Shown in pieces: positions 7,952 to 43,850 of a stretch of 64,000 bases of DNA. The notes beneath the pieces are model-generated. The model saw nothing but the letters and a program-made list of their open reading frames with translations. It had not been told where the DNA came from and did no database searches. Source of the DNA: Candidatus Poribacteria bacterium (lineage in GTDB: Bacteria; Poribacteria; WGA-4E; JAJDTR01). How positions within the stretch are numbered: the first letter of the stretch is position 1; every line of letters starts with the position of its first letter. The translations under genes and the position numbers were made by a program. Location of the stretch: contig OZ246960.1 in assembly GCA_965232235.1 (NCBI GenBank), positions 3,948,479 to 4,012,478 of the forward strand, in the 5' to 3' direction.

Positions 7952-8103
7952 TCCGTGTTGATCGGTAGCGTCCCATCATCCCTATCGGAATGATTCATTC
8001 AGCAAGCAACACTTTTGTACCGCAAACTGTTAGTTTGCGATCACAATCCATCAGCGGTACACGTTCATTTTTCGCTCTATGACTGGCTTTCCGAGAGTGT
8101 TAC

Positions 8104-8860
8104 TTGAGAGAATGGAAGCAGGTCGTAATGAGGTCTTTCGGACTATTCGAACGAATGCTGCACCGGAATGCTTTTTGTCGAAGCCTATTCGTAATAGGGA
8201 TAGGTTGTATCCTTGCGTTTGTTGAATCGGGCCAAGCCATTGACGCGAAAATTGCCTTCGGTTCAGACCGTGACGGCAACTCCGAAATCTACGTCATGGA
8301 ATCTGACGGGACAAACCCTGTCAGGCTGACCCAGAATCCGGCAGTTGACGCATATCCCGCTTGGTCGCCCGATGGGACAAAGATTGCCTTTACGTCTACC
8401 CGACGCAACGGATTCACTTGGGAAATCTATGTCATGAACACAGACGGGACAAAGCCGGTGCGCCGACGACAAACAACGGACGCTTTCCTGCATACGATGA
8501 ATCGCCTTCATGGTCGCTGGATGGGAAGCGAATCGTGTTTCAAGCGTGGAACGAAGGCAACCATGGCATCCACGTAATGAACGCCGACGGTGGCAATGTG
8601 CTACGGCTCACACGCCATTTCGCGTGGGACGCTTATCCAGCTTGGTCACCGGATGGATGAGCAATTGCATTTACATCACTCCGAAATTGGGCGTGTGAAG
8701 AAATTTCCTGATAAATCCTGATGGTACCAATCTCACTCAAATTACCAAATCTGTAGGTAGACACATGGCGAGAAGCGCAGCTTGGAGCCCTGCTCCGCAA
8801 CTAGTTTCTCCAAAAGAAAAGTTGGCTACCCAATTTGGGCACGTCAAACAGAGCCGATAA
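8104..8860 (+). pseudogene. frameshifted PD40 beta-propeller gene (pseudogene or assembly indel)
   Basis: PD40 homology is split over at least three frames (8104..8577, 8361..8660, and a third frame giving ...PDGTNLTQITKSVGRHMARSAAWSPAPQLVSPKEKLATQFGHVKQSR* ending at 8860). The C-terminal tail motif is still recognisable. Confidence 0.6.
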
Positions 8861-8872
8861 CCCGCAGGTATA

Positions 8873-22843: not shown

Positions 22844-25800
22844 ATGAATAACGAGACAATATTCACCGTCAAAAAGAAACATCTTGACCTACTAGACGAG
22901 GACACAGCAGTTGAGTTCTTTAGCAAACTGCTATGGGCTGAAGCGAACAGACTTGGTCCAGGAACCTGCAAGATTAATGTGCCGAGCCAAACCAAAATCC
23001 CTGATGGTGGAATTGATGCTACCGTTGACGCAGACCGACTTGCGAAACAAAGCGATATAATTGCCCCTGGCAAAAACGGTTACCAAATCCGATCAGGAAC
23101 TGCCTTTAAGCCGTGGCGGGATGGGGATATTCGGAAAGAACTCTTTAAGAAAGGAAGTCCTAAAACCCCTGAAAAAGAGAACTTAAGAGAAAGCATCAAG
23201 GATTGCCTTGATGAATGTGGTATTTACGTTTTAGTTTGCACTGGAATTGATTGTCTTGTTCCTCCCAACCGGAAAAAGGCCTCCAAACTCATTAAAGATT
23301 ACCTAGAAACGTGTGGTTATCCAAAGGCGAAGGTTGAGGTGTGGAGCCAAAACACCCTCCGTTGCTTTCTTGAGTCGTTCCCATCACTGTCTTTGTGGGT
23401 CAATGGACGCAATAGCGCAAAGTTTCAAACGCATGACAGTTGGTCGCGAGATGCGAGCATGCAACGTCCATTTGTTCATGGAGAATCTCAGGATGAATTG
23501 ATTGAAAATCTTCGGAGTGGTTTACGGCGCGCCGATAATAAGGATCCTATGTTAGTGTCCGGGCGGCCCGGCATCGGCAAGACCAGGCTTGTTTTGGAAG
23601 CAACAAACGCCACAGACCTAGCGCCTCTAGTGATTTACGCCCCAGCTGATCAATTCCTTCATGACAAATTTCTAATGGATGAACTTTGCAACGATGAAAA
23701 CGACTTTTCCGCGATTGTGGTAATTGATGATTGCAATCTCCATAGCCGATCAGAAATTTTGGATAAACTGAAGTATCGTGGTCCGAAAATCAAACTCATT
23801 ACCATCTATAATAACCACGAAGAAGCTGCAGGAGATATTACGCCCTATGTTCCCCAACCTCTAGGCGAGGACCAGATTCGCAGCATCATCGAGCAACATA
23901 CGAACGTCTCCGACAACGAAGACAGACGATGGGTTGAGCTCTGCAGTGGATCGCCGAGAGTCGCTCATGTCGTTGGTTGGAATCGGGCAAATTATCCAAG
24001 GGATGTACTCGCCTCTCTGAGCACCGTCAATATCTGGGAGGGCTATATTGTCTCAGTTGACGATCCAAGTCAGGAAAGAACGGAACAACGCAGACGAATA
24101 CTCCGATACATGGCACTGTTTAAGCAATTCGGTTTTGAAGACCCTGTTGGCGAAGAAGCCAAAGCCGTTTCCAAAAAGATTGAGGAGGCGGATCCCCAGA
24201 TTACGTGGACGATATTTCAGGAAATCGTTGATAACCTTAAGAAACGTAAAATCCTTGACGGAGATTATACACTTGCCATCACGCCGAAAGCCCTTCAGAT
24301 TAAGTTATGGATAGAATGGTGGGATATCTATGGCAGGACGTTTGACCTAGATGAATTTATTCAAAACTTTCCCTGCGATTCAAAATTGGTCGAGTGGTTC
24401 TATGAGATGTTTTCGTACGCATCTGAGTCTGGAGTGGCATTAAGCGCTGTGAAGGATCTTCTTGGCCCAGACGGTCCATTCCAACAAAGAAAATATCTGC
24501 AGACAAACCTCGGAAGTAGCTTTTTCTTGGCACTGACTGAAGCAGCCCCGGAATCCGCTCTAGAATGTCTTAAGAAAACGGTTGAGACATGGGATGGAGA
24601 AACCCTATCGCAATTCGTTGGATGTACTTGCGTAGTATTGGCACTTGAAAAGATTGCTGTGTGGAACCGCCTGTTTACAGATGCTGCGGAATTACTCCTT
24701 GCGCTTGGTGACAGTAGTTTTGCTGGACTCTTTTCGCCGGCACCTGGAGGCGTGGCACCGACGGAAGCGTCTCCGAAAGAACGGTTTCCTATCTTGGAGG
24801 GCGCGTTTGAATCGGAATCAAAAGCAAAACGTGTTTTGGCATTGAAGGCGAGTGATGTGGCTTTAGAATCAAGCTATTTCTCGCGATTTGGGAATCCAGA
24901 ATATCAAGGCTTACGTCAGAAACCCAAACTATGGACGCCTAAAACGGAGGGCGAATTTCGGGAGGCACTTCGCCGAGTATGGAAATTACTAGATAGACAG
25001 CTAGCGCGTTTGCCCAACGATGAATGTAAAAAAGGCGCGGCAATTCTGCTAAAACGTGCGCGCGAGATGGTGAGAATCCCAAATCTGGCCAAGATGGTTG
25101 TGGAAACGGTCGCTACAATTGCAAAAGAAGAATATGTAAATAAAAAACACGTTATTGGGACCATTAACCAAATCCTACACTACGATGGCGACAATATACC
25201 TGCGGAAACCCGAGGACTATGGGAGCAACTCATGGGCCAATTGGTTACACCTGACTTTCATTCCATGATGAGACGGTACGTTGGTATGGAATTGCTTGAA
25301 GACCTCCAACTTGGCGACGACCAAAATTACGTAGATCAGGCGCAACTTCAGATTGAAAAGCTCGCCCAACAAGCCATTAGCAATCCATCACGCTTGCAAT
25401 CGGAACTGGCTTGGCTTGTCACAAGCGAGGCCAAGAAGGGATACAATTTCGGGTATGAACTTGGGAAACGAGACAACGGCTTTTCCTTGCTGCTGACGCT
25501 TCTTAAAGCCCAACGAAACGCGGATGACAATGCAAGTACAGCTTTTCTGGGCGGTTATTTCCGTGCGCTCTTTGAATCGGACGCTGACCGGCGAGAAGCA
25601 CAACTTGAAGCGATGATTGATGATACCAAACTAAAACCGCTGATTCCAGCATTGACTTCCCGGTCGGGCCTTACAGATGAGGCGGGATTGCGTCTTCTCC
25701 GCCTCGCAAGAGATGGTACCATGGGTATAAATGACTTCAAAACCTTCACCTATGGCAAAGCCGTTGACGGTTTGTCTAGTGAAATCGTCACGACGTGGGT

Positions 25801-26644
25801 TGAATTTCTACTAGGCGTCAACGACCAAGCAGGTGCATCAATTGCACTGAACCTTTACCACTGCTACTATATCTTCCAGAAACCAGAACGGGATTTACCA
25901 CTTGATGTGACATTCCGATTGCTTCGTCATCAATCCCTGTTTGAAGGATTAGACGGGTATCAATTCGATTCTACCATGACCGCTTATTATTGGACAGAGA
26001 TAGCCAAAGTCTTCCCGCACCTTGATTCCGAAAAGGAATTGGAACTTTCGGAGTTAATGCTTTCCCATTTTGGCGAGGACGGTTCAATTGTTGGCCCTTA
26101 CTCGCGAACATGCTCGGTGCTTGATGAATTGACGCAACAGTATCCCGCTGAGGTCTGGAAGCAGGTTAGTGGACTCTTACAGAGCCAAGGGCATTCTTCA
26201 AGGACCATTGCTCTAGAAAAATGGCTCGGAGAAGGAGCCTCCTGGGGACGAGAAGAATCTAAACCTGCCCTGCTACGAATCCCGTACAAAATAATCTGGG
26301 AGTGGATTGACGAGGATATAGAAAAACGTGCGTGGTATTTCGCTTATAGGCTGGTTCCTATAACCCATTCATCGGAGGAATGGATGATTTCTATGGTAAG
26401 ATCGTTCCTCATCCGCTACGGCAGTCGCAAGGAGGTAAGAAGCGGTCTTATGAGTAACTATTTGTCTGGAGTATCGTTTGGCCCTGCCAGCTCGCACTTA
26501 CAAGCAAAAAAAGAGAAGCTGCTTCAGATAAGGGACATTGAAGATGAAGATGGCGATAATGTCAGGCGTTGGGTTGATGAATTTGTGGCGGAACTGGAAG
26601 GGGGAATTGGACGGGAAACGATGCGTGAGGAGAGAGAACATTAA
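22844..26644 (+). CDS. STAND-type P-loop NTPase with an N-terminal Mrr-like (PD-(D/E)xK restriction-endonuclease fold) domain and a long C-terminal helical sensor region; Avs-like antiviral protein candidate
   Basis: The N-terminus matches the Mrr-cat pattern (AVEFFSKLLWAEANRLG...IPDGGIDATVD...NGYQIRSG...GIYVLVCTGID). Walker A is GRPGIGKT. Walker B is AIVVIDDCNL. About 900 aa of predicted alpha-helical repeats follow. It has a lower GC than its neighbours. Confidence 0.75.
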   Translation: MNNETIFTVKKKHLDLLDEDTAVEFFSKLLWAEANRLGPGTCKINVPSQTKIPDGGIDATVDADRLAKQSDIIAPGKNGYQIRSGTAFKPWRDGDIRKELFKKGSPKTPEKENLRESIKDCLDECGIYVLVCTGIDCLVPPNRKKASKLIKDYLETCGYPKAKVEVWSQNTLRCFLESFPSLSLWVNGRNSAKFQTHDSWSRDASMQRPFVHGESQDELIENLRSGLRRADNKDPMLVSGRPGIGKTRLVLEATNATDLAPLVIYAPADQFLHDKFLMDELCNDENDFSAIVVIDDCNLHSRSEILDKLKYRGPKIKLITIYNNHEEAAGDITPYVPQPLGEDQIRSIIEQHTNVSDNEDRRWVELCSGSPRVAHVVGWNRANYPRDVLASLSTVNIWEGYIVSVDDPSQERTEQRRRILRYMALFKQFGFEDPVGEEAKAVSKKIEEADPQITWTIFQEIVDNLKKRKILDGDYTLAITPKALQIKLWIEWWDIYGRTFDLDEFIQNFPCDSKLVEWFYEMFSYASESGVALSAVKDLLGPDGPFQQRKYLQTNLGSSFFLALTEAAPESALECLKKTVETWDGETLSQFVGCTCVVLALEKIAVWNRLFTDAAELLLALGDSSFAGLFSPAPGGVAPTEASPKERFPILEGAFESESKAKRVLALKASDVALESSYFSRFGNPEYQGLRQKPKLWTPKTEGEFREALRRVWKLLDRQLARLPNDECKKGAAILLKRAREMVRIPNLAKMVVETVATIAKEEYVNKKHVIGTINQILHYDGDNIPAETRGLWEQLMGQLVTPDFHSMMRRYVGMELLEDLQLGDDQNYVDQAQLQIEKLAQQAISNPSRLQSELAWLVTSEAKKGYNFGYELGKRDNGFSLLLTLLKAQRNADDNASTAFLGGYFRALFESDADRREAQLEAMIDDTKLKPLIPALTSRSGLTDEAGLRLLRLARDGTMGINDFKTFTYGKAVDGLSSEIVTTWVEFLLGVNDQAGASIALNLYHCYYIFQKPERDLPLDVTFRLLRHQSLFEGLDGYQFDSTMTAYYWTEIAKVFPHLDSEKELELSELMLSHFGEDGSIVGPYSRTCSVLDELTQQYPAEVWKQVSGLLQSQGHSSRTIALEKWLGEGASWGREESKPALLRIPYKIIWEWIDEDIEKRAWYFAYRLVPITHSSEEWMISMVRSFLIRYGSRKEVRSGLMSNYLSGVSFGPASSHLQAKKEKLLQIRDIEDEDGDNVRRWVDEFVAELEGGIGRETMREEREH

Positions 26645-26670
26645 TCGACCATAATCTCAAGGAAAACCCC

Positions 26671-27210
26671 ATGGCAAACTATCAAGAACTCGCAAATCTC
26701 GTATGGAACGTAGCCGACGATGTCCTCCAAGGCTTATTCAAACCCCACGAATACGGCGACATCACCCTCCCGTTCCTCGTCCTGCGCCGTCTGGACTGCA
26801 TCCTAACGGAAGACGACCGAAAAGACAAAGCCATTGACGTCCACAACCGCTTCAAAGATGGCGTCCCCGAAGAATCCCTGCCCCGGATTATTCTGAACGA
26901 GACGAAATCCAGTTTCTACAACACCTCCCGCTACGACCTCCCCCGACTAAAAGCCGACCCCAACAACATCCGCCTCAACTTCACCAACTACCTCAACGGC
27001 TTCACCAAGGATGTGCGGGACATCATCGAAAACTTCAACCTCGATCAGTTCATTGACCGGCTTTACAACGCAACCTATGATTCTTTCCAACCGTGGACGG
27101 ATGGCTCAGCGCACCATAACGTCCGCAAGATTTCCATAGCGTTTCTGATGCCCGATTCTGGAATGCTCTGCAACGAAGTTACTTCCTCGGAGACAGACTG
27201 TGCTTTATGA
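26671..27210 (+). CDS. DNA N6-adenine methyltransferase N-terminal (HsdM_N-like) domain fragment; probable gene remnant
   Basis: AAGGAAAA RBS 26 nt after the upstream stop. The first ~135 aa match the methylase N-terminal domain (LVWNVADDVLQGLFKPHEYGDITLPFLVLRRLDCIL...FYNTSRYDLPRL...NFTNYLNGFTKDVRDIIENF). No catalytic motifs follow. The last ~45 codons run antisense to the 3' end of the convergent methyltransferase gene. Confidence 0.5.
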   Translation: MANYQELANLVWNVADDVLQGLFKPHEYGDITLPFLVLRRLDCILTEDDRKDKAIDVHNRFKDGVPEESLPRIILNETKSSFYNTSRYDLPRLKADPNNIRLNFTNYLNGFTKDVRDIIENFNLDQFIDRLYNATYDSFQPWTDGSAHHNVRKISIAFLMPDSGMLCNEVTSSETDCAL

Positions 27211-30065
27211 ATCTCAAACATGTACGACACCACAGCGTCAATCTCCTGTCGCACAGGATCTATGGCTGCATCCTTGGCCGGACGCAATGATTGGTTAGAC
27301 AGAACGTCAAATCGCGCCGCTGCCATTTCGAGGATCGCGTCCGACAGTCTGTCTAGGCGCGGGCACGGGATCTTCCTCAAAGCCCCAATCTGCGTCGTCG
27401 ACCGCCCATTTTGCGTCCGTTGACCCTGTGTCCAGTGTACGATCATTCCAAGCGTCGAGTTCCACCACAGCGCAAACGCCTTCCGCACTCGGACATCCTC
27501 ATGTATGAGAGCAGTCCATGCCCGTCCGCCAAGCGCGGGGTGCGCGGTCGACGCAGACAATAGCGCCTGGCTCGTCCACCTAAGATTGCGGGCGTAAAAC
27601 AATGTGCTGACATACAATCTCATCTGTTCGCCCTGCTCCGTCGACCCCACCCCGGGTGGTGCCAATCCCTTGTGGGTCGGTAATACTCGCAGCGAGCGCT
27701 GCGTTTTGGAGGATGCTTCCCACAAAGCTCGATCTACTCCAATCGCATCGGTCTCGCTCGTTACCGGATGAAATTCAAATGCACCTATCGGCTCATTCCC
27801 CTTCGGATGTCCGATTAAGTGGTGCGTTGGTCCCACATGAAAGATGTCTTCAATGGTCCCCATCTCCAATCCCAAAGGAATTGGTGTCCCCGCAATATGA
27901 TCGAGCGTCCCCCGTGTAAGCGCATCGGCGGCCAGTGCCAACCCTCCATGGATTACACCAACCATGTTCCACGGCAATCCTTCACCATTCGCATACATCA
28001 CTGTGATGCACCCAATTTCGCTGTTACCGACGGTAATTGGGTGTGTCATGTTGGTCGCGGTGCACTGCGCCTTCGCTTGCTCAATTGCCCTCGTCACTTC
28101 TCTCGCCTCGCCGTTCCGAGTGCACGGTTCATAAAGTGTCACACAATGCAGCAAAGCACGATCCTTCTTTTGAGGATGCTTGCGCCGCGTTGCAACTAGC
28201 AACATCTCCTCCATCCCAGTGTCTGCCGAAAAACTTGCCTGTTTGAGCGAAGCCCCGCTTGCCGTCGCAATCAGAACAATATCCGTGAATTCCGCTTCGA
28301 CCATTCGCCGCGTTTCCGTCCATGTATCGGCGAAAGCGCATGTGAGGGGTAATACAAACCCAATTCGCCCTGTTCCTGCCTTGACCTTATGCTTGGCTAG
28401 CACAAGAAATGACGCAGCCATCCCAGCTCGCAGCCGCGCGGGTTTGTCGTTCACTAGGACGCCCCATCGTTTCTGACAGCGCTTCCGATCCTCTTCAGTC
28501 AAACCCTTCAAATCAAAAGCGCTCTGGCCGCCGCGTGTCCTAGAATACGGCGGATTCATAAGAATCCAGTCCACGCTGCCGTGACGTACTTCCACGCTTG
28601 ACGCCTCGTGTTGGACCCCACCAGCCCTACCGAGACTTTGCCCGAACAAATCTTCTGTAAACGTAGCCTCTAGATATTCGAGCGCACCAGTCAGTGCTGT
28701 CCTACCACCAACCTTTACCCAGCCAATCTGCGTTTCACCGTAACTTTCCCCTTTCCCTATATTAGCGAGACTTGAGGAAGTCAGGTGCGCTGCAATCGGA
28801 CTAATGTCAGTGCCCCTTAACCCGTGTTCCATCGCGCCGCAATGTAGTTCCGCGACAGAGTCCTCCGTTCCTCCGGCCCATTCATGCAGAGTTTGTACGC
28901 GCAAATAGCCTTCCCTTAAAAGCGTACCCGTACCGCAGGCCAAATCCGCGATAATCGACCGGCGCAGCAAGTCTGACCGGCCCCACTCCGACTCTAGTTT
29001 GTCCGATTGCCGAATCGTTAGACTCGCAAGCAACTCCGCTGTCGCCGGCTGCGTATAGAACGCCGCGCTCTCCTTCCGATCTGAAGCAAGCTTAGGAAAT
29101 AACTCCGCCCCCACGTTTATGTGTTGCCCCAAATCCGCATCCTCAATCATACCCACCGCTTCAATCAACCGTTTGAGAGCTTCGGTCGTTCCGGCACGAT
29201 GAAAGTCACCGCAAACTGCTAGCGCATTGACAGCTGGCTCAAAAATCGACCGCCAGTTGATTTCGATTATTCGCCGCCACGTTTCGACTTGCTCGAATGG
29301 ATTAGGAGTGACACCGGATACCGTCCGAACCGGTGGAATGTCATTAACTCCCTGAACTTGCAGCCGTTGCTGGATCAATAGCGCGTTTAACCAGAGTACC
29401 ATAGTAGTCTGTAATCCCTCCAATGGAGAGTTTTGCCCCACTTGTCCCGCAATTTTCCGTTGCGCGTTCTCGTGGAGAGTCGATTTCAGCGTTTCCGCAG
29501 CTTGTTTCACTAACTGAGCTACCTCTGCTGCGCGGGCCTCCACCACTTCATTAGGCATCGCGGCGGCGGCGATCAGTCGCCTAGCATCATGAACCGTGCC
29601 TTGAATGAACCCTTTAGCTGGCCACCGACGTGTAGTTCCGTCACTCAACCCGCTTTGGTGCAGTGCATACGCAATCTGCTGCAATCCGTCCTTTAACTTC
29701 GCGTATACGGAATCTGCAGAAAGTTCTCGATATTCCTCAGGAATGTGGACCGCCAGAACCGCCAGCAGCGGTCTGCCTCCTCGTGTCGTTTTCTGACCTA
29801 GCCTGTCCTGAGCATCCCTATCGGCATCTGCCGCATTGAATGATGCCTCAATTGCTGCGGCTGGCATCTGCGGGTCATCGATCAAGATATCCGCTCGACC
29901 GGAACTCAGAGTACCCGTCCGTTCTGCCAGAATGTATTCATCAGAATGGCCGAGCCAGCGAGCCTCTGTTTCCGCCAACACCTTGCCAAACTCAATGTTG
30001 AACGTGTGTTCGTGGAGTTTCCCTTTCGATTGCTTAACTAAGTACAGTTGTTCCGTTTCTGGCAT
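27075..30065 (-). CDS. MmeI/PglX-family (Type IIG/IIL-like) N6-adenine DNA methyltransferase, possibly a methyltransferase-nuclease fusion
   Basis: SAM motif I reads ADLACGTGTLL. Motif IV reads WILMNPPYSRTRGG. The N-terminus resembles the MmeI-family nuclease module (EFGKVL...GRADILIDD...AIEAS). A ~490-aa C-terminal target-recognition-type region follows. GC is higher than in the neighbours. Confidence 0.8.
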   Translation of the reverse strand: MPETEQLYLVKQSKGKLHEHTFNIEFGKVLAETEARWLGHSDEYILAERTGTLSSGRADILIDDPQMPAAAIEASFNAADADRDAQDRLGQKTTRGGRPLLAVLAVHIPEEYRELSADSVYAKLKDGLQQIAYALHQSGLSDGTTRRWPAKGFIQGTVHDARRLIAAAAMPNEVVEARAAEVAQLVKQAAETLKSTLHENAQRKIAGQVGQNSPLEGLQTTMVLWLNALLIQQRLQVQGVNDIPPVRTVSGVTPNPFEQVETWRRIIEINWRSIFEPAVNALAVCGDFHRAGTTEALKRLIEAVGMIEDADLGQHINVGAELFPKLASDRKESAAFYTQPATAELLASLTIRQSDKLESEWGRSDLLRRSIIADLACGTGTLLREGYLRVQTLHEWAGGTEDSVAELHCGAMEHGLRGTDISPIAAHLTSSSLANIGKGESYGETQIGWVKVGGRTALTGALEYLEATFTEDLFGQSLGRAGGVQHEASSVEVRHGSVDWILMNPPYSRTRGGQSAFDLKGLTEEDRKRCQKRWGVLVNDKPARLRAGMAASFLVLAKHKVKAGTGRIGFVLPLTCAFADTWTETRRMVEAEFTDIVLIATASGASLKQASFSADTGMEEMLLVATRRKHPQKKDRALLHCVTLYEPCTRNGEAREVTRAIEQAKAQCTATNMTHPITVGNSEIGCITVMYANGEGLPWNMVGVIHGGLALAADALTRGTLDHIAGTPIPLGLEMGTIEDIFHVGPTHHLIGHPKGNEPIGAFEFHPVTSETDAIGVDRALWEASSKTQRSLRVLPTHKGLAPPGVGSTEQGEQMRLYVSTLFYARNLRWTSQALLSASTAHPALGGRAWTALIHEDVRVRKAFALWWNSTLGMIVHWTQGQRTQNGRSTTQIGALRKIPCPRLDRLSDAILEMAAARFDVLSNQSLRPAKDAAIDPVRQEIDAVVSYMFEIHKAQSVSEEVTSLQSIPESGIRNAMEILRTLWCAEPSVHGWKES

Positions 30066-37595: not shown

Positions 37596-37647
37596 TTCAA
37601 AGTAATTCAACGTCGCCGCACTTCGGGCACAACTGAACGGATGACAC

Positions 37648-38187
37648 ATGAAAAGTAAATGGTCCCTAGACAAGATTGGATTCGTTCGCGCCTTTTTTGC
37701 TATTTTGGTAATTCGGCTCGTGTTCTTTTATCATACCCCGTCTTTGACTTTAGTTTACCTTGGTTATCTGGCAACCCAATCAATCGTCGTATTAATGTTG
37801 TTATTCCCTGTTTGGGCGATTGCCAGTGGATTCAACCGTGCCACGATGCCCAGTGTGTTTTGTTGGAGAGGCCGCATCACACGATTGAAATGGTTATCCA
37901 TCATCCCGATAAACCTTTTAAATATCCTTTTAATCGTATTCGCTTATTCCCATTCTTACGTAACGTGGAGTATGGGCGCGCTGGCATGGATGGTGTTTAT
38001 CAGCCCTTGGATAACAGCGGTGTCAACGACAAAACGTCTTCACGATATCAACAAATCTGGTTGGTGGCAGCTGTTATTGTGGTTGATACCAGTGTTTGGT
38101 CCGTTGGCCGCTATTATCGTGCTGGGTTGTTTTAAGGGCACTGTAGGGCCAAATCCATTTGGAGCGGATCCCAAAGCGCCGACATAA
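37648..38187 (+). CDS. DUF805-family inner-membrane protein
   Basis: Motif RLHDINKSGWWQLLLWLIPVFGPLAAIIVLGCFKGTVGPNPFG. Confidence 0.75.
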   Translation: MKSKWSLDKIGFVRAFFAILVIRLVFFYHTPSLTLVYLGYLATQSIVVLMLLFPVWAIASGFNRATMPSVFCWRGRITRLKWLSIIPINLLNILLIVFAYSHSYVTWSMGALAWMVFISPWITAVSTTKRLHDINKSGWWQLLLWLIPVFGPLAAIIVLGCFKGTVGPNPFGADPKAPT

Positions 38188-38475
38188 TGACGACTGATAA
38201 TTTGACAGGTGCTTGGTTCATTGGTTCGATTATTTGGCACACCAACCCTAGCTTCTCACGCCGCTTTTTCACAACTGCCAAATCTTTCGCATTCTCTTTT
38301 TCGCTTCAGCGGGGCGCTACGTCTGTAGCAAACCGTAAACCCCACTTGCACTCCAGCCTGCGATTACGCGAGCAATGCACGAGTCATCAAGGGAGATCAA
38401 TCGAAGGGACAGATCAACTGAGCGAATAACGCAGCCGGAAGTAAATCCTGTGCCCGGTCTTTGGTTAATCAATAC

Positions 38476-38656
38476 GGCAAACTGCCATTAAATCCTCGAT
38501 TCCCTCCCTCACCGCCCACCACCCCTCCCAATCCGTGAAATCCGTGTAATCTGCGTAATCTGTGATTCAGACCACCCACCACCATTTCCACTCTCACCGC
38601 CGCCCCTAATCCTGCCAATCCAAAAATCACATGAATCACAGTTCAGACAATCCCCT
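38476..38656. repeat. ~180-bp direct repeat, copy 1 (strand-asymmetric, C/A-rich, G-poor)
   Basis: It is ~90% identical to 38881..39069. It contains the short tandem unit AATCCGTG / AATCTGCG. Confidence 0.6.
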
Positions 38657-38788
38657 TCACCAACCACCCCGTCGCCACTCTGCCCCGTCCTCTACAGGTC
38701 GCGATGCCCCACTCCCCCGTGAAATCAAACCGGCGGACAAAGAGCGCTATCCGAATCATCAACCCCGACACAATTCCCATATTCCAAT

Positions 38789-38855
38789 CTCCCCACTGCA
38801 GCGCAGTACAATGTCAATAGAAACGAACGATACCCGTACACGCACTCCAGCGGAG
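38789..38855. repeat. dispersed ~67-bp element, copy B
   Basis: It matches 22324..22390. It lies between the two ~180-bp direct repeats. Confidence 0.5.
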
Positions 38856-38880
38856 TGCAATGTTTTTGGTTTATCCCTGC

Positions 38881-39069
38881 GGCAAACCGCCATCAAATCC
38901 TCAGTTCCCTCCCCCGACTCCCACCATCCCTCCCAATCCGTGAAATCCGTGAAATCCGTGTAATCTGCGTAATCTGTGCTTCAGACCACCCACCACCATT
39001 TCCACTCTCACCGCCACCCCTAATCCTGCCAATCCAAAAATCACATGAATCACAGTTCAGACAATCCCC
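38881..39069. repeat. ~180-bp direct repeat, copy 2
   Basis: See copy 1. This copy has one extra AATCCGTG unit. Confidence 0.6.
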
Positions 39070-39238
39070 CTCACTGGCGACTGCTCACTGGTCACTAAAC
39101 ACTGCATTTCCCACTCTCACCACTCGCCACCGATCACTGCTTTTCTCTCCCCTCCCACTCCCTCTTGTCTTCCCCGCTCTACACTCATCACTCTCCACTG
39201 CTTTTCCCTTTCTACAATGTTAGATTTTTCATTATCGC

Positions 39239-39267
39239 TTGACAAGTCCACCATAACATGCTATTAT
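39239..39267 (+). promoter_or_regulatory. near-consensus sigma70 promoter TTGACA-N17-TATTAT
   Basis: Perfect -35 box, 17-nt spacer, and a -10 matching 5 of 6. It lies ~265 nt upstream of ATG 39533. Confidence 0.45.
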
Positions 39268-39397
39268 TGTAACTGAATTTATCTCGTGTTGACATTGTGG
39301 CATTAGACCACATTCGCGGCGGTTGACCATACGATGAATCAACGCAAGCCGCTGTCAACTGAACTGACTCATAAAGAGAGCCCATTTGAGGCCAAAC

Positions 39398-39438
39398 CTG
39401 TTGTCAATCAACAGTTAGCCTTAAGTGGGCTTTTTTTG
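39398..39438 (+). terminator. leader hairpins plus T7 tract (attenuator-like) between the promoter and the terminase-operon RBS
   Basis: CTGTTG-tcaat-CAACAG, then a short GCC/GGC stem, then TTTTTTT. Confidence 0.3.
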
Positions 39439-39532
39439 TTCCATCTGACCGCTGAACAACTGATTTGCCGGAGTAAATTTTCTGTTGCCGCTTGTGGCTG
39501 TTCATTCACCACCTTATCTTAGGAGTTCCTGT

Positions 39533-40093
39533 ATGAAACACGTTCAAATCAAACTCACGGACGAAGAGCGTGCCGATACCATCTATCAACGGGTCTGGCA
39601 CAATACCACCACAACTGCTATTGTCGACGCCCTTATAAAGGCGCATCCCGAATGGAAGGATGTGCCTCGGCGAATAATCCAAGACGCCACGCGAACCTGC
39701 AATCCGTTCCACAGTAAATTCGCGGAAAAATGGAAGCCAATCTATGAAAGCACTCTCAAGCACTTTCAAGCAGAGCGAGAAAGACACACCCAAGGCACGT
39801 CATTACACGCCTCCATGGCAATTTTTAAGCTAATCGACAAAGTGCTTGAAGGTGTCGATCGCGTCGAATTACAAAGCCCGAATGATGTGCTGTCAATTGC
39901 CCGTAGTATTGCGCCGATTAGAAAAGTCCTAACGCTGAGCATCAGCGCCAACTCAAGTGACGAAGATAATGACGAAGATAATTCCAAGCAAGGACATGAT
40001 GCAAGCGATGCCGCACTGCGAACGCTGGAGAGTCTTGGACACTGTACGCAAGAAGATGAAAAACAATCAAGAAGACGAAGCCGCGATGATTAG
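39533..40093 (+). CDS. hypothetical protein, positional candidate for terminase small subunit
   Basis: AGGAG lies 7 nt upstream of the ATG. Its stop overlaps the terminase large-subunit start (ATGATTAG). It has an acidic, Ser/Asp-rich C-terminus. No direct homology is recognised. Confidence 0.5.
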   Translation: MKHVQIKLTDEERADTIYQRVWHNTTTTAIVDALIKAHPEWKDVPRRIIQDATRTCNPFHSKFAEKWKPIYESTLKHFQAERERHTQGTSLHASMAIFKLIDKVLEGVDRVELQSPNDVLSIARSIAPIRKVLTLSISANSSDEDNDEDNSKQGHDASDAALRTLESLGHCTQEDEKQSRRRSRDD

Positions 40094-41768
40094 GGCGCAC
40101 GCCGGCTACCGGTGGCCCGAGCTTTTCGTCTGGTTGTACATCAGAAACATCAGCTACCGCATGCTAGAACTCAAACCATTCCACATCCAAATCCTCAACG
40201 CCATCAGACCCGGCGAATACGGTAAGCAGATTAACATTCAAGCCCCGCGCGGCACCGGCAAAACCACCCTCGTCAACCGCCTAATCCCCCTATGGCGAAT
40301 CTGCTACAAAGCATTCGATCTCGCCATGGGCCGCCAACCCGAAGAATTCATCCTCATCGTCGGTCGCGACGCAGACAAGGCGCGCCAACGTATTTCCGAA
40401 ATCCGCGAAGTGCTCGAATACAACCCCCTAATCAGACGCGACTTCGGCGACCTCGTCGGTTCTCCATGGACAAAAAACGAAACCGACACCCGCAACGGCA
40501 TCGGACTGAGACCTCTCGGACGCGGTTCCTCCCCTCGCGGCGCCCTCCTCGGCGATGTGCGGCCAACACTCAAGCTCTGCGACGACATCGAAGACCCCAA
40601 GCGCTGCCTCAATCCCAAGCTACGGCAAGAAGACAGAGAATGGTTCATGACCGACTTCATGTACGCCGGTGATCTCGGTAGCACGCATTCCAACACCATG
40701 ATAGTCGATACCGTCAAACACCCCGAATCCCTCTCCGAACACCTCCGCACCCTACCCGGTTGGCGGACGCTGCGGTATGAAGCCGTCCGCGATCCCAAAG
40801 ACATCTACCACCCCACCGCCGAGCACCTCTGGAAAGAGTGGGAACGTATCTACAGCGACACGACGCTCGACGACGAGCAACGCCAACGGCAAGCGCAAGA
40901 ATTTCACGAGGAACACCGCCGCGAAATGGATTCCGGCGTGCAGATGCTATGGCCCGAGCAGCTGCCGTACCTCCAGGTCCGCAAAGAAATCGTCGAGCGC
41001 GGCTACCACAACGTCATGCGCGAACTCCAGAACGACGCCCGCGATCCGTCAATGGCATTGTTCAACATGGATAACGCGCTGACGTTTGCCGTCACCGACG
41101 AAGGCTTTCGCCGTTCCGATGGGCGTGTTGTGCCATGGCACGATATGGGCGGCTTCGTAACATACCTCGACACCATGGGCGGGCGCGATGCCGCCGAAAA
41201 TAGTTTCGCGTGTGCTGTTGTCGTCGTTTGGGAACCGCTGATTGGCGGTCAATCGCTTAACCCCGATTCGCTCTCCGGTGTGAACGGATACATACTGCTC
41301 GCCTGGCTCGACCGCGTCGCACTCACCGAGCAAATGGAGCGCGCCATCCTCCTCGCCCAGCGCGCCGAGGCGATGTTGGCGCCGGCGCATCCCAAATCCC
41401 ACTTCGTTTGCGAACAGCGCCCCGACAAAGACGGCACCATCCGCAAATCGACCGACGATGCCTTCCGTGCCATGAAAGAGCGCCACCGCTTTGAACGTAG
41501 AATCATGTATCACGACCAGCACCAGAACAAAGAAGACCGTATAGCCACCCTTGAGCCAGCCATAGCCAACGGATGGCTCGCCTTCAACGAGCGGGACTTG
41601 CCTCCCGAATTTTGGACCCAGTTTCGCCAATTCCCGTCGGCGGACCACAACGACGCCCCCGACGCCGTCCAAGGCGCGGTACGATCGCGCATCACCACTA
41701 CCGCGAAACAACGCGCCGATCTATCTGCCGCGCGTCGATTCAACCGCAACTCCGTCGTGCGACTGTAA
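40086..41768 (+). CDS. terL: phage terminase large subunit (ATPase plus RNase-H-like nuclease)
   Basis: Q-motif/Walker A region is HIQILNAIRP...QAPRGTGKTT. Nuclease motifs are YLDTMGGRDAAENSFACAVVVVW and FPSADHNDAPDAVQGAV. The start ATG overlaps the upstream stop. GC is high. Confidence 0.8.
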   Translation: MIRAHAGYRWPELFVWLYIRNISYRMLELKPFHIQILNAIRPGEYGKQINIQAPRGTGKTTLVNRLIPLWRICYKAFDLAMGRQPEEFILIVGRDADKARQRISEIREVLEYNPLIRRDFGDLVGSPWTKNETDTRNGIGLRPLGRGSSPRGALLGDVRPTLKLCDDIEDPKRCLNPKLRQEDREWFMTDFMYAGDLGSTHSNTMIVDTVKHPESLSEHLRTLPGWRTLRYEAVRDPKDIYHPTAEHLWKEWERIYSDTTLDDEQRQRQAQEFHEEHRREMDSGVQMLWPEQLPYLQVRKEIVERGYHNVMRELQNDARDPSMALFNMDNALTFAVTDEGFRRSDGRVVPWHDMGGFVTYLDTMGGRDAAENSFACAVVVVWEPLIGGQSLNPDSLSGVNGYILLAWLDRVALTEQMERAILLAQRAEAMLAPAHPKSHFVCEQRPDKDGTIRKSTDDAFRAMKERHRFERRIMYHDQHQNKEDRIATLEPAIANGWLAFNERDLPPEFWTQFRQFPSADHNDAPDAVQGAVRSRITTTAKQRADLSAARRFNRNSVVRL

Positions 41769-41789
41769 AACTGATTCAAAATCTCAGCT

Positions 41790-42260
41790 ATACGTAGCGT
41801 GGAATCAAGAGAGTGAATAGCGACCGCGATAGAGATCCCCTGCCCACCATTCCATATTTCCGTCGGGTGGGAGGGGCATCTTGCCCCGATTGATTACGAA
41901 ACGATCAACTGACCGAATCGTATCAAGCGAATGAATAATAAGCGATCAACCGACTGATTAAGGAGGGCGATAGGAATTCCGCCTCTGTAGGAGCGATCTC
42001 CGAATCGCGACAATCCTAAAACGAGTCATCAATCCGCTATATGTAGGGTGGAATCAAGCGAATGGATAGTGAGCGATCAAGGGAGATCAAACGAACGATC
42101 AAAGGAATGAATAATGACTGCGATAGAAATCCCATAGAGATCTTTGCGCGATAGAAAGTCCTGATAGAAATCCCTCGACCTCCCGGTCGCGATTTCCTCT
42201 TTGCGCGTAAGTTCTGGACTGAACTAAACAATTACGTAAATCTTGTAGCGATCAACTGAG
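41790..42260. repeat. cluster of short dispersed word repeats (GCGATAGARATCCC, CTGTAGGAGCGAYCTCC..TCGCGA, GATCAAGGGAGATCAA, GCGATCAACYGA)
   Basis: The same words occur at 22250-22420 and 38390-38420. They are irregularly spaced and therefore not a CRISPR array. Confidence 0.5.
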
Positions 42261-42500
42261 TCGAAGGTTGGGTTGAACGGAAATCCGTTAGTAACCGCTA
42301 ATTTTGTAGACGTTTTCGAGTGCCTACGTCGCTTGAACGTGCAAAGTTTGAAGGAAACCCAACTCGTTCTACCATCATGAGATTTCCTCTTCAATTATAT
42401 ATGTCTCCCTGAACTTCGAAGCCTTTTCGCTTGTCAGTTTTCACATACTTTGCTATAATCGAAACTCCCGAAACAAGGCATTGTCAGCAACAAATCCGAA

Positions 42501-43850
42501 ATGCCAGGTTCATCAAACGAAATTGAAAGGAATAACATCGTGAGGAAACTACGCATCATCATCCCGTACTTAGTTTTTGCACTGTGTGTGGTGACTTTAT
42601 CCGCAGACGCTGACGAAACTCTGACCATTGCATGGGCAGAGTGGCCGCCAGCGGATTATCTGCAGGAATTGTCCAAGGATTTTACGGAAGAAACAGGGAT
42701 CACGGTTGAAGTCATTCAAATTCCCTGGCCCAGCTTTCAAGATCAAATTTTCACGGCGTTTGTCGGCAAGAGTAACCGCTACGATATTGTCATAGGCGAC
42801 AGCCAGTGGCTCGGAAGAAATTCTGTGGGAGGACACTATATTGAATTGACGGATTGGATAAACGAGAATATCGCGGTCGACGAAATTTATGGGCCGGCAA
42901 TGACCGCATTCGCCGAATACCCGAAGGGCAGCAAGGAATATTGGGCGCTTCCCGCCGAGGTGGATGCCAATGGCTATGTCTATCGTACGGATCTATTTAA
43001 CGACCCGCAGGAAATGAGTGCGTTCAAGGCAAAATACGGTTATGAGTTGGCTCCACCCAAAACCTACAAAGAGATGAGGGATGTTGCCGAATTCTTTACC
43101 AGACCGCCGGATTTGTACGGTATAGCGACCTACTTCAGCAAAGAGTACGATGGCATCACGATGGGATTCCAGCAGGTGATGTGGTCGTTCGGGGGATCGT
43201 ACGGCGATCCGGAGACGCACAGGGTCGACGGTTTCATCAACAGCGACGACTCCGTCAAGGCGTTGGAATACTATATTGAACTCACCAAATATTCTCCTCC
43301 CGACGCTCCAAACTACTATTGGCAAGAGACGCTGGATGCCTATAAGTCGGGAAAAGTCGCTATGGCGATGGACTATTACGCATTCCTTCCCGCGGCAGTA
43401 TCCTCGGATTCGAATCCAATGTATCACGATAAGAGTGACTTCTTCATTGCTCCGGCCGGTCCCAAAGGGCATTACATCAGCATCGGCGGACAAGGGATGT
43501 CGATTTCGTCCTACTCCAAAAACATGGATACCGCCAAGAAGTACATGAAGTGGTTTATGCAGAAGCCGGTACAGGAAAAATGGGCTTTGCTCGGCGGGTT
43601 CTCGCCCCACAAGGAGGTTTTGCAATCCGATACCTTCTTGAATGCCACGCCGTTCAATAGAGCGTTTGCAGCCAGTTTCCCGTATCTGCGCGATTTCTGG
43701 GCGGTGCCGGAGTATGCGGAACTATTGGAGGCGTGTCAGACAAACTGGAACGCCGCTATTGTCGGCTTAAAATCGGCGAAGGACGCCTTGGACGAAATTG
43801 CAAGGAAGCATGAAGCTATCTTCGAGGAAGCTGGCTATTACGATGAATAA
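42501..43850 (+). CDS. carbohydrate ABC transporter substrate-binding protein (family 1 extracellular solute-binding)
   Basis: It has a signal peptide and an SBP fold pattern. It is followed by permease and ATPase genes. An alternative GTG start at 42540 is possible. Confidence 0.85.
   Translation: MPGSSNEIERNNIVRKLRIIIPYLVFALCVVTLSADADETLTIAWAEWPPADYLQELSKDFTEETGITVEVIQIPWPSFQDQIFTAFVGKSNRYDIVIGDSQWLGRNSVGGHYIELTDWINENIAVDEIYGPAMTAFAEYPKGSKEYWALPAEVDANGYVYRTDLFNDPQEMSAFKAKYGYELAPPKTYKEMRDVAEFFTRPPDLYGIATYFSKEYDGITMGFQQVMWSFGGSYGDPETHRVDGFINSDDSVKALEYYIELTKYSPPDAPNYYWQETLDAYKSGKVAMAMDYYAFLPAAVSSDSNPMYHDKSDFFIAPAGPKGHYISIGGQGMSISSYSKNMDTAKKYMKWFMQKPVQEKWALLGGFSPHKEVLQSDTFLNATPFNRAFAASFPYLRDFWAVPEYAELLEACQTNWNAAIVGLKSAKDALDEIARKHEAIFEEAGYYDE

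What the first reader, a model, noticed from the sequence alone, without database searches (positions are those of the whole stretch)
39533..41768. Orphan terminase small(?)/large subunit pair with ATGATTAG translational coupling and no other phage genes
TerL is unambiguous from its P-loop plus RNase-H-like nuclease motifs. The upstream 186-aa ORF is coupled to it as TerS genes usually are. No portal, capsid, tail or integrase genes occur in 64 kb. The pair could be a prophage remnant, part of a satellite or GTA-like system, or a domesticated packaging module. It is notable that the same island carries an Avs-like protein, a family that is triggered by terminases.
Basis: partly seen in the sequence, partly recalled or inferred. 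Interest (0 to 1): 0.6.

Follow-up and report, generated by a model that had tools for sequence, protein, structure and literature searches.

The report
Multicopy leader-gated orphan terminase cassette
The lone phage DNA-packaging gene pair is real, but it is not a dead prophage scrap: it is one copy of a conserved, recombining family of cassettes (promoter, terminator-ending leader RNA, small partner protein, large terminase) found 2-5 times in every Poribacteria genome examined, and its nearest relatives are the terminases of phages that carry portal genes.

Summary
ORF-A (39533-40093, 186 aa) overlaps a full-length TerL (40035 or 40086 to 41768; phrog_38 E=2e-52; Walker A/B and nuclease acidic residues invariant). 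No other phage gene was found in the 64 kb.

The pair is not a remnant. Thirty-nine related loci were found, all in Candidatus Poribacteria, 2-5 per genome. Only ORF-A plus TerL are conserved. The flanking genes are unrelated housekeeping genes.

TerL is under strong purifying selection (dN/dS 0.05-0.22). ORF-A falls into at least 7 subtypes that co-evolve with TerL. Copies exchange mosaic tracts within and between species.

Each cassette is preceded by a sigma70-type promoter and a ~160-nt leader. The leader ends in an intrinsic terminator supported by covariation. A covariance model finds it only at cassettes.

TerLs 58-64% identical lie in phage or prophage contigs with portal genes. In one of these, an ORF-A homologue sits in the TerS position. 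Several Poribacteria genomes also hold a portal-bearing cluster with the same leader, ORF-A and TerL, and the window's genome probably does too.

Best reading (about 0.5): these are leader-gated alternative terminases that use capsids of the related phage. The "Avs-like" neighbour matches PD-Lambda-4, lies 13 kb away, and no link to the cassette was found.

The parts
39239..39267 (+). Sigma70-type promoter of the cassette (TTGACA, 17 nt, TATTAT, with TG extended -10)
   Evidence: It matches 11 of 12 consensus positions. The -35 element and extended -10 are invariant or nearly so in 17 aligned loci.
39275..39437 (+). Leader transcript of about 160 nt (inferred start about 7 nt after the -10), ending at the terminator
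   Evidence: Conserved sequence blocks are present in 17 loci. Covariance model R1 scores 95 bits at 39334-39437 and matches nowhere else in the window. No Rfam family matches. The structure of the 5' half is not established.
39379..39437 (+). Intrinsic terminator: 14-bp outer stem plus an inner stem-loop (apical motif GTCAATCAAC), followed by T7
   Evidence: 91% of cells are paired and 7 pairs show compensatory changes. 0 of 500 shuffles reach the observed percentage paired or covariation score, and slid controls give 29-50% pairing. There are many G-U pairs, and minus-strand scores are far lower, so the structure is RNA-level on the + strand.
39533..40093 (+). ORF-A, 186 aa: a helical small protein in the TerS position (subtype i of at least 7)
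   Evidence: An RBS is present. A homologous ORF precedes TerL in 38 related loci. dN/dS is 0.16-0.55. It co-evolves with TerL. It is homologous to the TerS-slot protein of phage contig L123 (hhalign probability 96.7%, E=3.9e-10). It has no Pfam, PHROG, PADLOC or PDB match.
40035..41768 (+). TerL-family ATPase-nuclease, 577 aa from TTG 40035 (560 aa if from ATG 40086)
   Evidence: phrog_38 match at E=1.9e-52. Catalytic motifs are invariant. dN/dS is 0.05-0.22. It is 58-64% identical to TerLs that sit next to portal genes.
40086..40093 (+). ATGATTAG: the ORF-A stop overlapping an in-frame TerL ATG
   Evidence: Read directly from the sequence. It is possibly not the start codon actually used.

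Best explanation
The pair is one copy of a Poribacteria-wide family of three-part cassettes. Each has (1) a strong sigma70-type promoter and a ~160-nt leader ending in an intrinsic terminator, (2) a fast-diversifying small protein, ORF-A, that fills the small-terminase position, and (3) a full-length large terminase with intact ATPase and nuclease centres. The family derives from the terminase module of a phage lineage that infects, or resides in, these bacteria.

Proposed mechanism:
- By default, transcription stops at the leader terminator. There is no promoter-like site between the terminator and ORF-A, and in some copies only 40 nt separate them.
- When read-through is induced (inferred: by a late-gene antiterminator of the related phage or prophage), ORF-A and TerL are made together.
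- ORF-A recognises a DNA site. Its subtype sets the specificity.
- TerL cuts the DNA and pumps it into procapsids supplied by the related phage or by the resident portal-bearing cluster.

The outcome would be diversion of packaging to chromosomal DNA that starts at the cassette. That would give transduction of the cassette and its neighbours, interference with the phage, or both. Who benefits (a selfish 'packaging-only satellite', a GTA-like host function, or defence) is not resolved.

Shown here: the architecture, conservation, selection, recombination and phage kinship. Inferred: conditional read-through, DNA recognition by ORF-A, and use of foreign capsids.
For: - Family and boundaries: 39 loci, all Poribacteria, 2-5 per genome. 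Only ORF-A and TerL are conserved, and nucleotide homology ends at the TerL stop.
- Function is retained: TerL dN/dS is 0.05-0.22, ORF-A 0.16-0.55, and the catalytic motifs are invariant.
- Cognate pairs: TerL clades match ORF-A subtypes, not chromosomal position.
- Exchange: identity tracts of 99-100% between copies in one genome and between species. The same chromosomal slot holds different subtypes in different genomes.
- Leader: the promoter is conserved. The terminator shows covariation. The covariance model matches at one cassette-linked site in each of 25 of the 28 clade-1 loci (window included; in L021 an inserted gene separates it from ORF-A) and scores at most 28 bits anywhere else in 900 kb. 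No promoter-like site lies between the terminator and ORF-A in the window. The spacer is 40-41 nt in L010, L013 and L019.
- Phage kinship: L121 carries portal phrog_156, TerS phrog_4102 and a TerL 62% identical. L123 has the same gene order with an ORF-A homologue in the TerS slot. L124-L126 are similar. Phage TerLs interleave with the two cassette clades in the tree.
- Resident capsid-side genes: in L006, L009, L014 and L017 the leader, ORF-A and TerL sit beside a portal (61-76% identical to the L121, L124 and L126 portals, about 50% to L123's), protein X and, in L014, an internal-virion-protein homologue. In L006, L008, L009, L014 and L021 the gene after TerL is phage-related.
- The window genome's second TerL (P0033) is of the subtype found only in that cluster.
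Against: - No pac-like repeat or binding site was found for the window's subtype. Subtype-specific short repeats are seen only in clade 2.
- ORF-A has no detectable similarity to known TerS families, and its AlphaFold model is of low confidence (pLDDT 56).
- The leader is absent from the free phage contigs, so a shared regulator is conjecture.
- In the four clade-2 genomes no portal was seen within 10 kb of any cassette.
- There are no expression or virion-DNA data.
- The near-universal co-orientation with the downstream gene is not explained by this model.
Confidence: 0.5

Rival explanations
1. Capsid-independent enzyme. ORF-A targets a DNA site and TerL acts as a free ATP-dependent nuclease/translocase. 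It could be an anti-phage effector that cuts phage concatemers. It could instead be a homing-type selfish nuclease whose breaks are repaired by copying the cassette, which would explain the gene conversion.
For: Mosaic conversion tracts occur between copies and species. Subtypes are replaced within fixed slots. TerL GC is raised (0.574 against 0.496 in the flanks), as expected from biased gene conversion. Several specificities exist per genome. In the four clade-2 genomes no portal lies nearby. One slot lies next to a Type ISP restriction enzyme.
Against: There is no match to any PADLOC defence model. Most neighbours are housekeeping genes, not defence islands. The whole TerL, including its C-terminal half, is conserved at the level of phage TerLs that dock on portals. 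By established knowledge, large terminases show little activity without procapsid and TerS. Conversion tracts do not start or end at one fixed cut site.
Confidence: 0.2
2. The leader is not just a switch. It is a trans-acting RNA subunit (scaffold, antitoxin-like inhibitor or guide) of an ORF-A/TerL ribonucleoprotein. The terminator keeps the RNA in excess, as in type III toxin-antitoxin loci.
For: The RNA is exclusive to cassettes and highly conserved, including an almost invariant apical loop. The promoter-RNA-terminator-protein order resembles ToxIN. phi29 shows that packaging motors can use an RNA (general knowledge).
Against: The RNA variant does not follow the ORF-A/TerL subtype and recombines independently of it. 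The apical loop is replaced by a 110-nt insert in 8 loci without loss of the genes. No consensus structure or covariation was found in the 5' half. There are no repeats like toxI.
Confidence: 0.1
3. Ordinary decaying prophage remnant in which the terminase genes happen to survive.
For: Within the window the pair is isolated and flanked by 1.3 kb and 0.7 kb of repeat-rich non-coding DNA. A few family members are frameshifted (L023, L024) or reduced to a stub (L039).
Against: The unit has identical boundaries in 39 loci and at least 12 different contexts. Purifying selection is strong, a dedicated promoter and leader are conserved, and no pseudogenised phage genes flank it (tblastn negative).
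Confidence: 0.03

Closest known systems
Phage terminase holoenzyme (TerS + TerL) of the phrog_38 lineage; nearest real examples are the portal-bearing contigs L121, L123, L124, L126
   Same: It has a full-length TerL with ATPase and RNase-H-like nuclease motifs. A small partner gene sits directly upstream and overlaps it. TerL is 58-64% identical to these examples, and an ORF-A homologue fills the TerS slot of L123.
   Different: No portal, capsid, tail or lysis genes are linked. The cassette is multicopy in a chromosome. It has its own promoter and terminator-ending leader, which the phage contigs lack. ORF-A is unrelated to the annotated TerS families (phrog_4102, phrog_6299, Sf6-type).
Phage satellites that bring their own packaging specificity (SaPI TerS, PICI Rpp, cf-PICI TerS+TerL, PICMI)
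   Same: Chromosomal elements without a full virion gene set that encode terminase components. Those components redirect a helper's capsids to non-phage DNA.
   Different: Satellites have an integrase, att sites, a replication module and a helper-sensing repressor. None of these is present here. The cassette is 2.5 kb, does not excise as far as can be seen, and sits between housekeeping genes.
Gene transfer agents (RcGTA-type) and lateral transduction from in-situ pac sites
   Same: A host-resident terminase initiates packaging on chromosomal DNA. A conserved portal-bearing cluster exists in several Poribacteria genomes.
   Different: GTAs have one terminase inside one head-tail cluster. Here 2-5 divergent terminase pairs are dispersed, mostly away from any structural gene. 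No GTA regulator was identified.
Lambdoid late-operon control (PR' promoter, short terminated 6S transcript, tR', Q antiterminator, then Nu1/A terminase genes)
   Same: A strong constitutive promoter, a short terminated leader transcript, and terminase genes downstream that need read-through.
   Different: No Q-like gene or demonstrated Q-binding or pause elements are present. This is a resemblance of layout only.
Type III toxin-antitoxin loci (ToxIN)
   Same: The order is promoter, non-coding RNA, intrinsic terminator, then a potentially toxic nuclease gene.
   Different: There are no tandem RNA repeats. The protein is a TerL, not an endoribonuclease. There is no evidence of RNA-protein binding.

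Membership tests
Large terminase (TerL) | Significant match to a TerL profile over both domains | tested here: met
   phrog_38 E=1.9e-52, residues 25-552. 112 phage records are matched over at least 80% of the query. Pfam is only sub-threshold and there is no PDB hit by sequence.
Large terminase (TerL) | Walker A/B ATPase motifs and acidic residues of the RNase-H-like nuclease | tested here: met
   R55/G56/K59, D166/D167/E169, D362, D523 and D526 are invariant in 14 divergent homologues. The fold itself was not modelled.
Large terminase (TerL) | Encoded with portal and capsid genes of a virion module | tested here: not met
   There are none in the 64-kb window. This is met only in the related loci L006, L009, L014, L017 and in the phage contigs.
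Small terminase (TerS) | Sequence or profile similarity to a known TerS family | tested here: not met
   No Pfam or PHROG hit. hhalign against the phrog_6299 and phrog_4102 TerS proteins is negative.
Small terminase (TerS) | Gene immediately upstream of TerL, coupled to it, and co-evolving with it | tested here: met
   The overlap is conserved in the 38 loci that keep both genes. TerL clades match ORF-A subtypes. A homologue occupies the TerS slot next to a portal in L123.
Small terminase (TerS) | N-terminal DNA-binding helix-turn-helix plus an oligomerisation helix core | tested here: inconclusive
   The AF2 model is all-helical (four short N-terminal helices, then long helices) but has pLDDT 54-56. 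Fold searches gave nothing below E=1.
Phage satellite (SaPI/PICI/P4/PLE type) | Integrase, att repeats, replication module, helper-responsive regulator | tested here: not met
   Neighbours are DUF805, LRR/dockerin and sugar ABC transporter genes. There is no tRNA. The flanking repeats are genome-wide dispersed repeats, not att sites.
Gene transfer agent | Terminase inside a conserved head-tail cluster that packages host DNA | tested here: not met
   Not met in the window. A portal-bearing cluster with the same leader, ORF-A and TerL exists in other genomes. Packaging of host DNA cannot be tested with these tools.
Known anti-phage defence systems (PADLOC), including Avs | Match of the pair to a defence-system model; for the neighbour, match to Avs | tested here: not met
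   ORF-A has no hit. TerL has only a spurious SspH hit at 9.7e-4. The 1266-aa neighbour matches PD-Lambda-4_A, not Avs.
Decaying prophage remnant | Relaxed selection, variable deletion boundaries, flanking phage pseudogenes | tested here: not met
   dN/dS is 0.05-0.22. The boundaries are identical in 39 loci. tblastn finds no phage remnants in the window.
Rfam RNA families (for the leader) | Match to a curated covariance model | tested here: not met
   There is no relevant hit at E<=1 in 37600-42600.

The most novel reading that the evidence does not exclude
The leader RNA, ORF-A and TerL form a capsid-independent ribonucleoprotein machine. A phage packaging ATPase-nuclease would have been re-purposed, with a dedicated structured RNA acting as scaffold, inhibitor or guide. 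It would cut and translocate chromosomal or invading DNA, and so drive the observed gene conversion among cassettes.
Probability: 0.07. Interest if true: 0.9.

Novelty: new variant of a known kind. Interest (0 to 1): 0.7.

Why it matters
Terminase genes are the standard marker for 'this is a phage'. Here they are maintained on their own: several divergent, co-evolving TerS-like/TerL pairs per chromosome, across a whole candidate phylum of sponge symbionts. They sit behind a private promoter and terminator-ending leader RNA, and they exchange sequence between species.

If they load host DNA into capsids of the related phage, they would be the smallest known capsid-hijacking elements: no integrase, no replication module, no structural genes. 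That would give uncultivated symbionts a built-in route for gene exchange, or for sabotaging phage.

The work also supplies three usable items: a new TerS-position protein family, a new cis-regulatory RNA motif, and a warning for prophage and virus callers that score TerL hits.

Tried and rejected
- ORF-A identity: Pfam, PHROGs, PADLOC and PDB sequence searches found nothing. hhalign against two annotated TerS proteins was negative.
- ORF-A structure: AlphaFold on the single sequence and with a 30-sequence alignment reached only pLDDT 54-56. The Foldseek searches against viral and PDB libraries were therefore meaningless.
- Leader RNA: Rfam found no family. RNAalifold on the 5' half found no supported structure, so I claim only the terminator hairpin.
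- Transposon idea (TerL as transposase): no terminal inverted repeats. The flanking direct repeats are dispersed genome repeats. Copies share fixed 'slots' and show conversion tracts rather than fresh insertions.
- Functional theme among downstream genes: none. They are ABC transporters, UppS/RsgA, NuoF, Ldh_2, a Type ISP restriction enzyme and FG-GAP proteins.
- Wider sequence scans: the IMG/VR scan gave one weak partial hit. The metagenome scan was swamped by generic gut-phage TerLs because the search pattern was too degenerate; only L041 was useful.
- Contig look-up: an exact look-up of the window's own TerL, and of the second copy P0033, found neither on record.
- pac-like repeats: a k-mer search in the window's subtype found none.
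- Literature: full-text searches for orphan or standalone terminases, and for Poribacteria prophages, found nothing relevant.
Full report
**1. The observation**

Two overlapping + strand genes occupy the reported interval.
- ORF-A runs from ATG 39533 to TAG 40093 (186 aa). An AGGAG ribosome-binding site lies 7 nt upstream of the start.
- The TerL frame is open from 39957 to 41768.
- The string ATGATTAG is at 40086-40093.

TerL is genuine.
- It matches PHROG phrog_38 'terminase large subunit' at E=1.9e-52 over residues 25-552.
- tblastn finds 300 phage records, all below 60% identity. The best are about 26% identical: Paenibacillus, Bacillus and Mu-like Pseudomonas and Burkholderia phages.
- Pfam gives only a sub-threshold Terminase_6C hit.
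- The Walker A motif (QAPRGxGKTT), Walker B motif (LCDDIED) and nuclease motifs (YLDTMGG, HNDAPDAVQGA) are invariant in a 14-sequence alignment that reaches down to 54% identity.

The TerL start is more likely the TTG at 40035 than the ATG at 40086. The TTG has a GGAG just upstream, homologues carry Met at that position, and the database protein is 577 aa. Either way the two genes overlap, and an overlap is conserved in the 38 related loci that keep both genes.

**2. The window around it**

The window is ordinary chromosome. It carries ArgJ, oxidoreductases, PD40 and LRR/dockerin proteins, DUF805 and a sugar ABC transporter operon.
- It has no tRNA genes.
- No phage structural gene or integrase turned up among 30 ORFs scanned with Pfam or PHROGs.
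- tblastn with 34 proteins of the related phages found nothing in the window.

The protein called 'Avs-like' (22844-26644) matches PADLOC PD-Lambda-4_A (E=2.7e-21) and lies 13 kb away.

TerL has a higher GC content (0.59, GC3 0.71) than the window (0.50). ORF-A does not (0.48).

**3. A multicopy family, not a remnant**

The TerL has more than 100 database relatives at 54-100% identity. Several pairs sit on the same multi-megabase contig.

A scan of one genome per species returned 39 loci. All are Candidatus Poribacteria:
- OZ240209 and OZ242354 have 5 copies each.
- CBDCTK, CBDBEE and OZ245030 have 4 each.
- The other seven genomes have fewer: three with 3, three with 2, and one with 1 plus a stub.

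Clustering all ORFs of these loci shows what is conserved: only TerL and the ORF immediately upstream. Nucleotide homology between copies ends at the TerL stop.

The flanking genes differ between copies but recur between genomes. I call these recurring positions 'slots'. The window, L003, L004 and L022 all sit in front of the same ABC transporter operon. Downstream genes across the slots are unrelated housekeeping functions. In about 17 of 18 distinct contexts they are co-oriented with the cassette. This is unexplained.

L023 and L024 look frameshifted, and L039 is a stub, so some copies are lost over time.

**4. Selection and exchange**

- TerL dN/dS is 0.05-0.22. ORF-A dN/dS is 0.16-0.55.
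- ORF-A splits into at least seven subtypes that are barely alignable. Only A52, N57 and P58 are invariant.
- In a neighbour-joining tree, TerL clades coincide with ORF-A subtypes and not with slots. The two genes are therefore cognate, co-evolving pairs. The same slot carries different subtypes in different genomes.
- Sister copies occur within one genome: L010/L011 and L004/L033.
- Sliding-window identity shows mosaic tracts. L010/L011 are 100% identical across ORF-A only, 90-95% in TerL and 75% in the leader. L001/L002, from two species, are 99-100% identical from the promoter to about 250 nt into TerL, then about 90%. L016/L020 are 97-99% in the leader but about 80% in ORF-A.

Frequent gene conversion among copies, within and between species, is the simplest reading. 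The raised GC of TerL in all loci (mean 0.574 against 0.496 in the flanks) would fit biased gene conversion. That last point is inference.

**5. A conserved promoter and terminator-ending leader**

Upstream of ORF-A in the window there are two elements:
- A sigma70-type promoter at 39239-39267 (11 of 12 consensus positions, with an extended -10).
- A long hairpin plus T7 run at 39379-39437.

The same layout is visible upstream of ORF-A in nearly all loci. On 17 sequences the hairpin is well supported:
- 91% of cells are paired.
- Seven pairs show compensatory changes.
- 0 of 500 shuffles reach the observed percentage paired or covariation score.
- Slid controls give 29-50% pairing.

G-U pairs are common, and the minus strand scores far lower, so this is an RNA-level structure on the + strand.

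I built a covariance model, R1, and searched the window plus all 39 loci (900 kb).
- 25 of the 28 clade-1 loci (the window included) give one strong hit (48-111 bits), on the + strand.
- 24 of these hits lie 40-420 nt upstream of ORF-A.
- In L021 an inserted 465-aa ORF separates the hit from ORF-A.
- L017, L022 and L023 have no strong hit, although the leader with an insert is visible upstream of ORF-A in L017 and L022.
- No match elsewhere scores above 28 bits.

In eight loci a ~110-nt hairpin insert sits in the apical loop. Clade-2 loci have a recognisably related or more elaborate terminator at the same place. Four of them gave weak R1 hits.

No Rfam family matches the leader. The 5' half has conserved sequence blocks but no supported consensus structure.

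The window has no promoter-like site between the T-run and ORF-A. In L010, L013 and L019 that spacer is only 40-41 nt. ORF-A and TerL therefore most probably depend on read-through of the terminator.

The leader variant does not follow the ORF-A subtype. This argues for a generic switch rather than a specificity partner.

**6. Kinship with real phages**

Known-virus collections hold no close relative. IMG/VR gave one weak partial hit.

A profile search of 1.84 billion representative proteins shows an extended family of about 25-30 clusters above the generic TerL plateau. One member at 35% identity (L041) sits in a classic phage context: primase, HNH, TerS, ParB, Mom-like protein, TerL.

Closer relatives were more telling.
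- P0091 (62% identical to the window's TerL) lies on a 47.8-kb contig, L121. The order there is portal (phrog_156), a 176-aa protein I call X, TerS (phrog_4102), TerL, then two large proteins.
- P0098 (58%) lies on L123 with the same order and a portal 46% identical to that of L121.
- The TerS-slot protein of L123 is homologous to the ORF-A family. hhalign gives probability 96.7%, E=3.9e-10, and the alignment includes the invariant NP motif. tblastn with it hits the ORF-A genes of nine loci.
- P0092, P0089 and P0095 (60-64%) are in similar phage or prophage-like settings. L124 has a weak ORF-A-like protein.

In a neighbour-joining tree the phage TerLs interleave with the two cassette clades. 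Clade 2 groups with L123. Clade 1 groups with L121, L126, L124 and L125. There is no bootstrap support for this tree.

The leader RNA is absent from these phage contigs.

**7. A portal-bearing sister locus in Poribacteria genomes**

tblastn of the phage proteins against all loci shows that one slot is not orphan. In L006, L009, L014 and L017 the leader, ORF-A and TerL lie about 5 kb downstream of several phage-related genes:
- a portal, 61-76% identical to those of L121, L124 and L126 (about 50% to L123's) and 88-92% identical between species;
- protein X;
- in L014, which reaches furthest upstream, also an internal-virion-protein homologue.

In L006, L008, L009, L014 and L021 the gene after TerL is also phage-related.

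The second TerL on the window's own 5.63-Mb contig (P0033) is 93.8% identical to the TerL of this cluster in L021. It belongs to subtype v, which was seen only in that cluster. The window's genome therefore probably carries the portal cluster elsewhere.

In the four clade-2 genomes no portal was seen within 10 kb of any cassette.

**8. Interpretation**

Shown:
- a conserved, selected, recombining three-part module;
- cognate ORF-A/TerL pairs;
- a dedicated terminator-ending leader;
- close kinship to terminases of portal-encoding phages and of a resident portal cluster.

Inferred:
- read-through is conditional (a layout like the lambdoid late-operon leader);
- ORF-A is the DNA-recognition subunit;
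- TerL works on procapsids of the related phage or cluster.

I put about 0.5 on this 'alternative terminase that uses related capsids' mechanism. I leave open whether the beneficiary is the cassette itself (a packaging-only satellite that spreads by transduction and homologous replacement, which would fit the cross-species mosaics and slot re-use), the host (GTA-like), or defence.

Rivals:
- a capsid-independent nuclease, either a defence effector or a homing-type element (0.2);
- an RNA-protein machine in which the leader is a subunit (0.1);
- a decaying remnant (0.03).

About 0.17 is left unassigned.

**9. Novelty**

Full-text searches found no description of orphan or standalone terminase cassettes, nor of Poribacteria prophages of this kind. 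The components are of known kinds: TerL, a TerS-position partner, an intrinsic terminator. The combination is a new variant: multicopy, integrase-less, leader-gated, phylum-wide, with a new TerS-position family and a new RNA motif.

Noticed in passing
window 38450-38660 and 38855-39074; 41784-42140: A C-rich 1.3-kb non-coding stretch upstream holds two ~210-nt direct repeats (98% identical over 131 nt). A 0.7-kb stretch downstream holds short repeats. Both families hit many unrelated places in other Poribacteria loci, so they are dispersed REP/MITE-like genome repeats and not ends of the cassette.
   Followed up: partly
L005, L008, L010, L011, L013, L014, L017, L022, L024 (e.g. L010:9194-9389): A ~110-nt self-complementary element (GGTGGCTTGTGGTCAGTGG...CCACTG) is inserted exactly in the apical loop of the leader terminator. 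It replaces the otherwise near-invariant GTCAATCAAC motif, and the outer stem is kept.
   Followed up: partly
window 22844-30065: A small defence-like islet: a 1266-aa PD-Lambda-4_A-like NTPase (E=2.7e-21), an HsdM N-terminal fragment (26671-27210), and a 996-aa minus-strand ORF with weak type IIG / mad2 hits. It lies 13 kb from the terminase pair with unrelated genes in between.
   Followed up: partly
L014:1-13344; also L006, L008, L009, L017, L021: A conserved phage-derived cluster in several Poribacteria species. Its order is internal-virion-protein homologue, 211-aa protein, portal, X, four genes not seen in the related phages (g78, g150, g17, g24), leader RNA, ORF-A, TerL, then a post-TerL phage-like gene. 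The portal is 88-92% identical between species. It could be a prophage or GTA-like; its left end is beyond the fetched DNA.
   Followed up: partly
L025-L029, L036 (subtype vi) and L027, L032, L038 (subtype vii), between terminator and ORF-A: Subtype-specific short repeats are present: AATTACA/TGTAATT about 3-4 per locus in subtype vi, and AATGGAT/ATCCATT about 3-4 per locus in subtype vii. They are candidate ORF-A binding (pac- or operator-like) sites. None was found in clade 1, including the window.
   Followed up: partly
L021:7547-9412: A 465-aa ORF (7717-9114) is inserted between the leader terminator (7547-7651) and ORF-A. The junction falls right after the T-run.
   Followed up: no
L023, L024, L039: TerL appears frameshifted in L023 and L024 (both in OZ242354; this could be assembly error). 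In L039 it is reduced to residues 506-542, in the slot that holds a full cassette in L026, L029 and L030.
   Followed up: no
all cassette loci (TerL at about 10001-11680): TerL GC is consistently higher than its surroundings (mean 0.574 against 0.496; window GC3 0.71). ORF-A and the phage L123 TerL are not elevated. Biased gene conversion is suspected.
   Followed up: partly
L001-L038, downstream of TerL: The cassette is co-oriented with the next real downstream gene in about 17 of 18 distinct contexts, whereas upstream neighbours have mixed orientation. No explanation was found.
   Followed up: no
OZ244829.1 (L014 and L020); OZ242351.1 (L030 and L036): Two cassettes of different subtype can lie within about 30 kb of each other: L014 and L020 are 33 kb apart, and L030 and L036 are 29 kb apart on opposite strands.
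   Followed up: no
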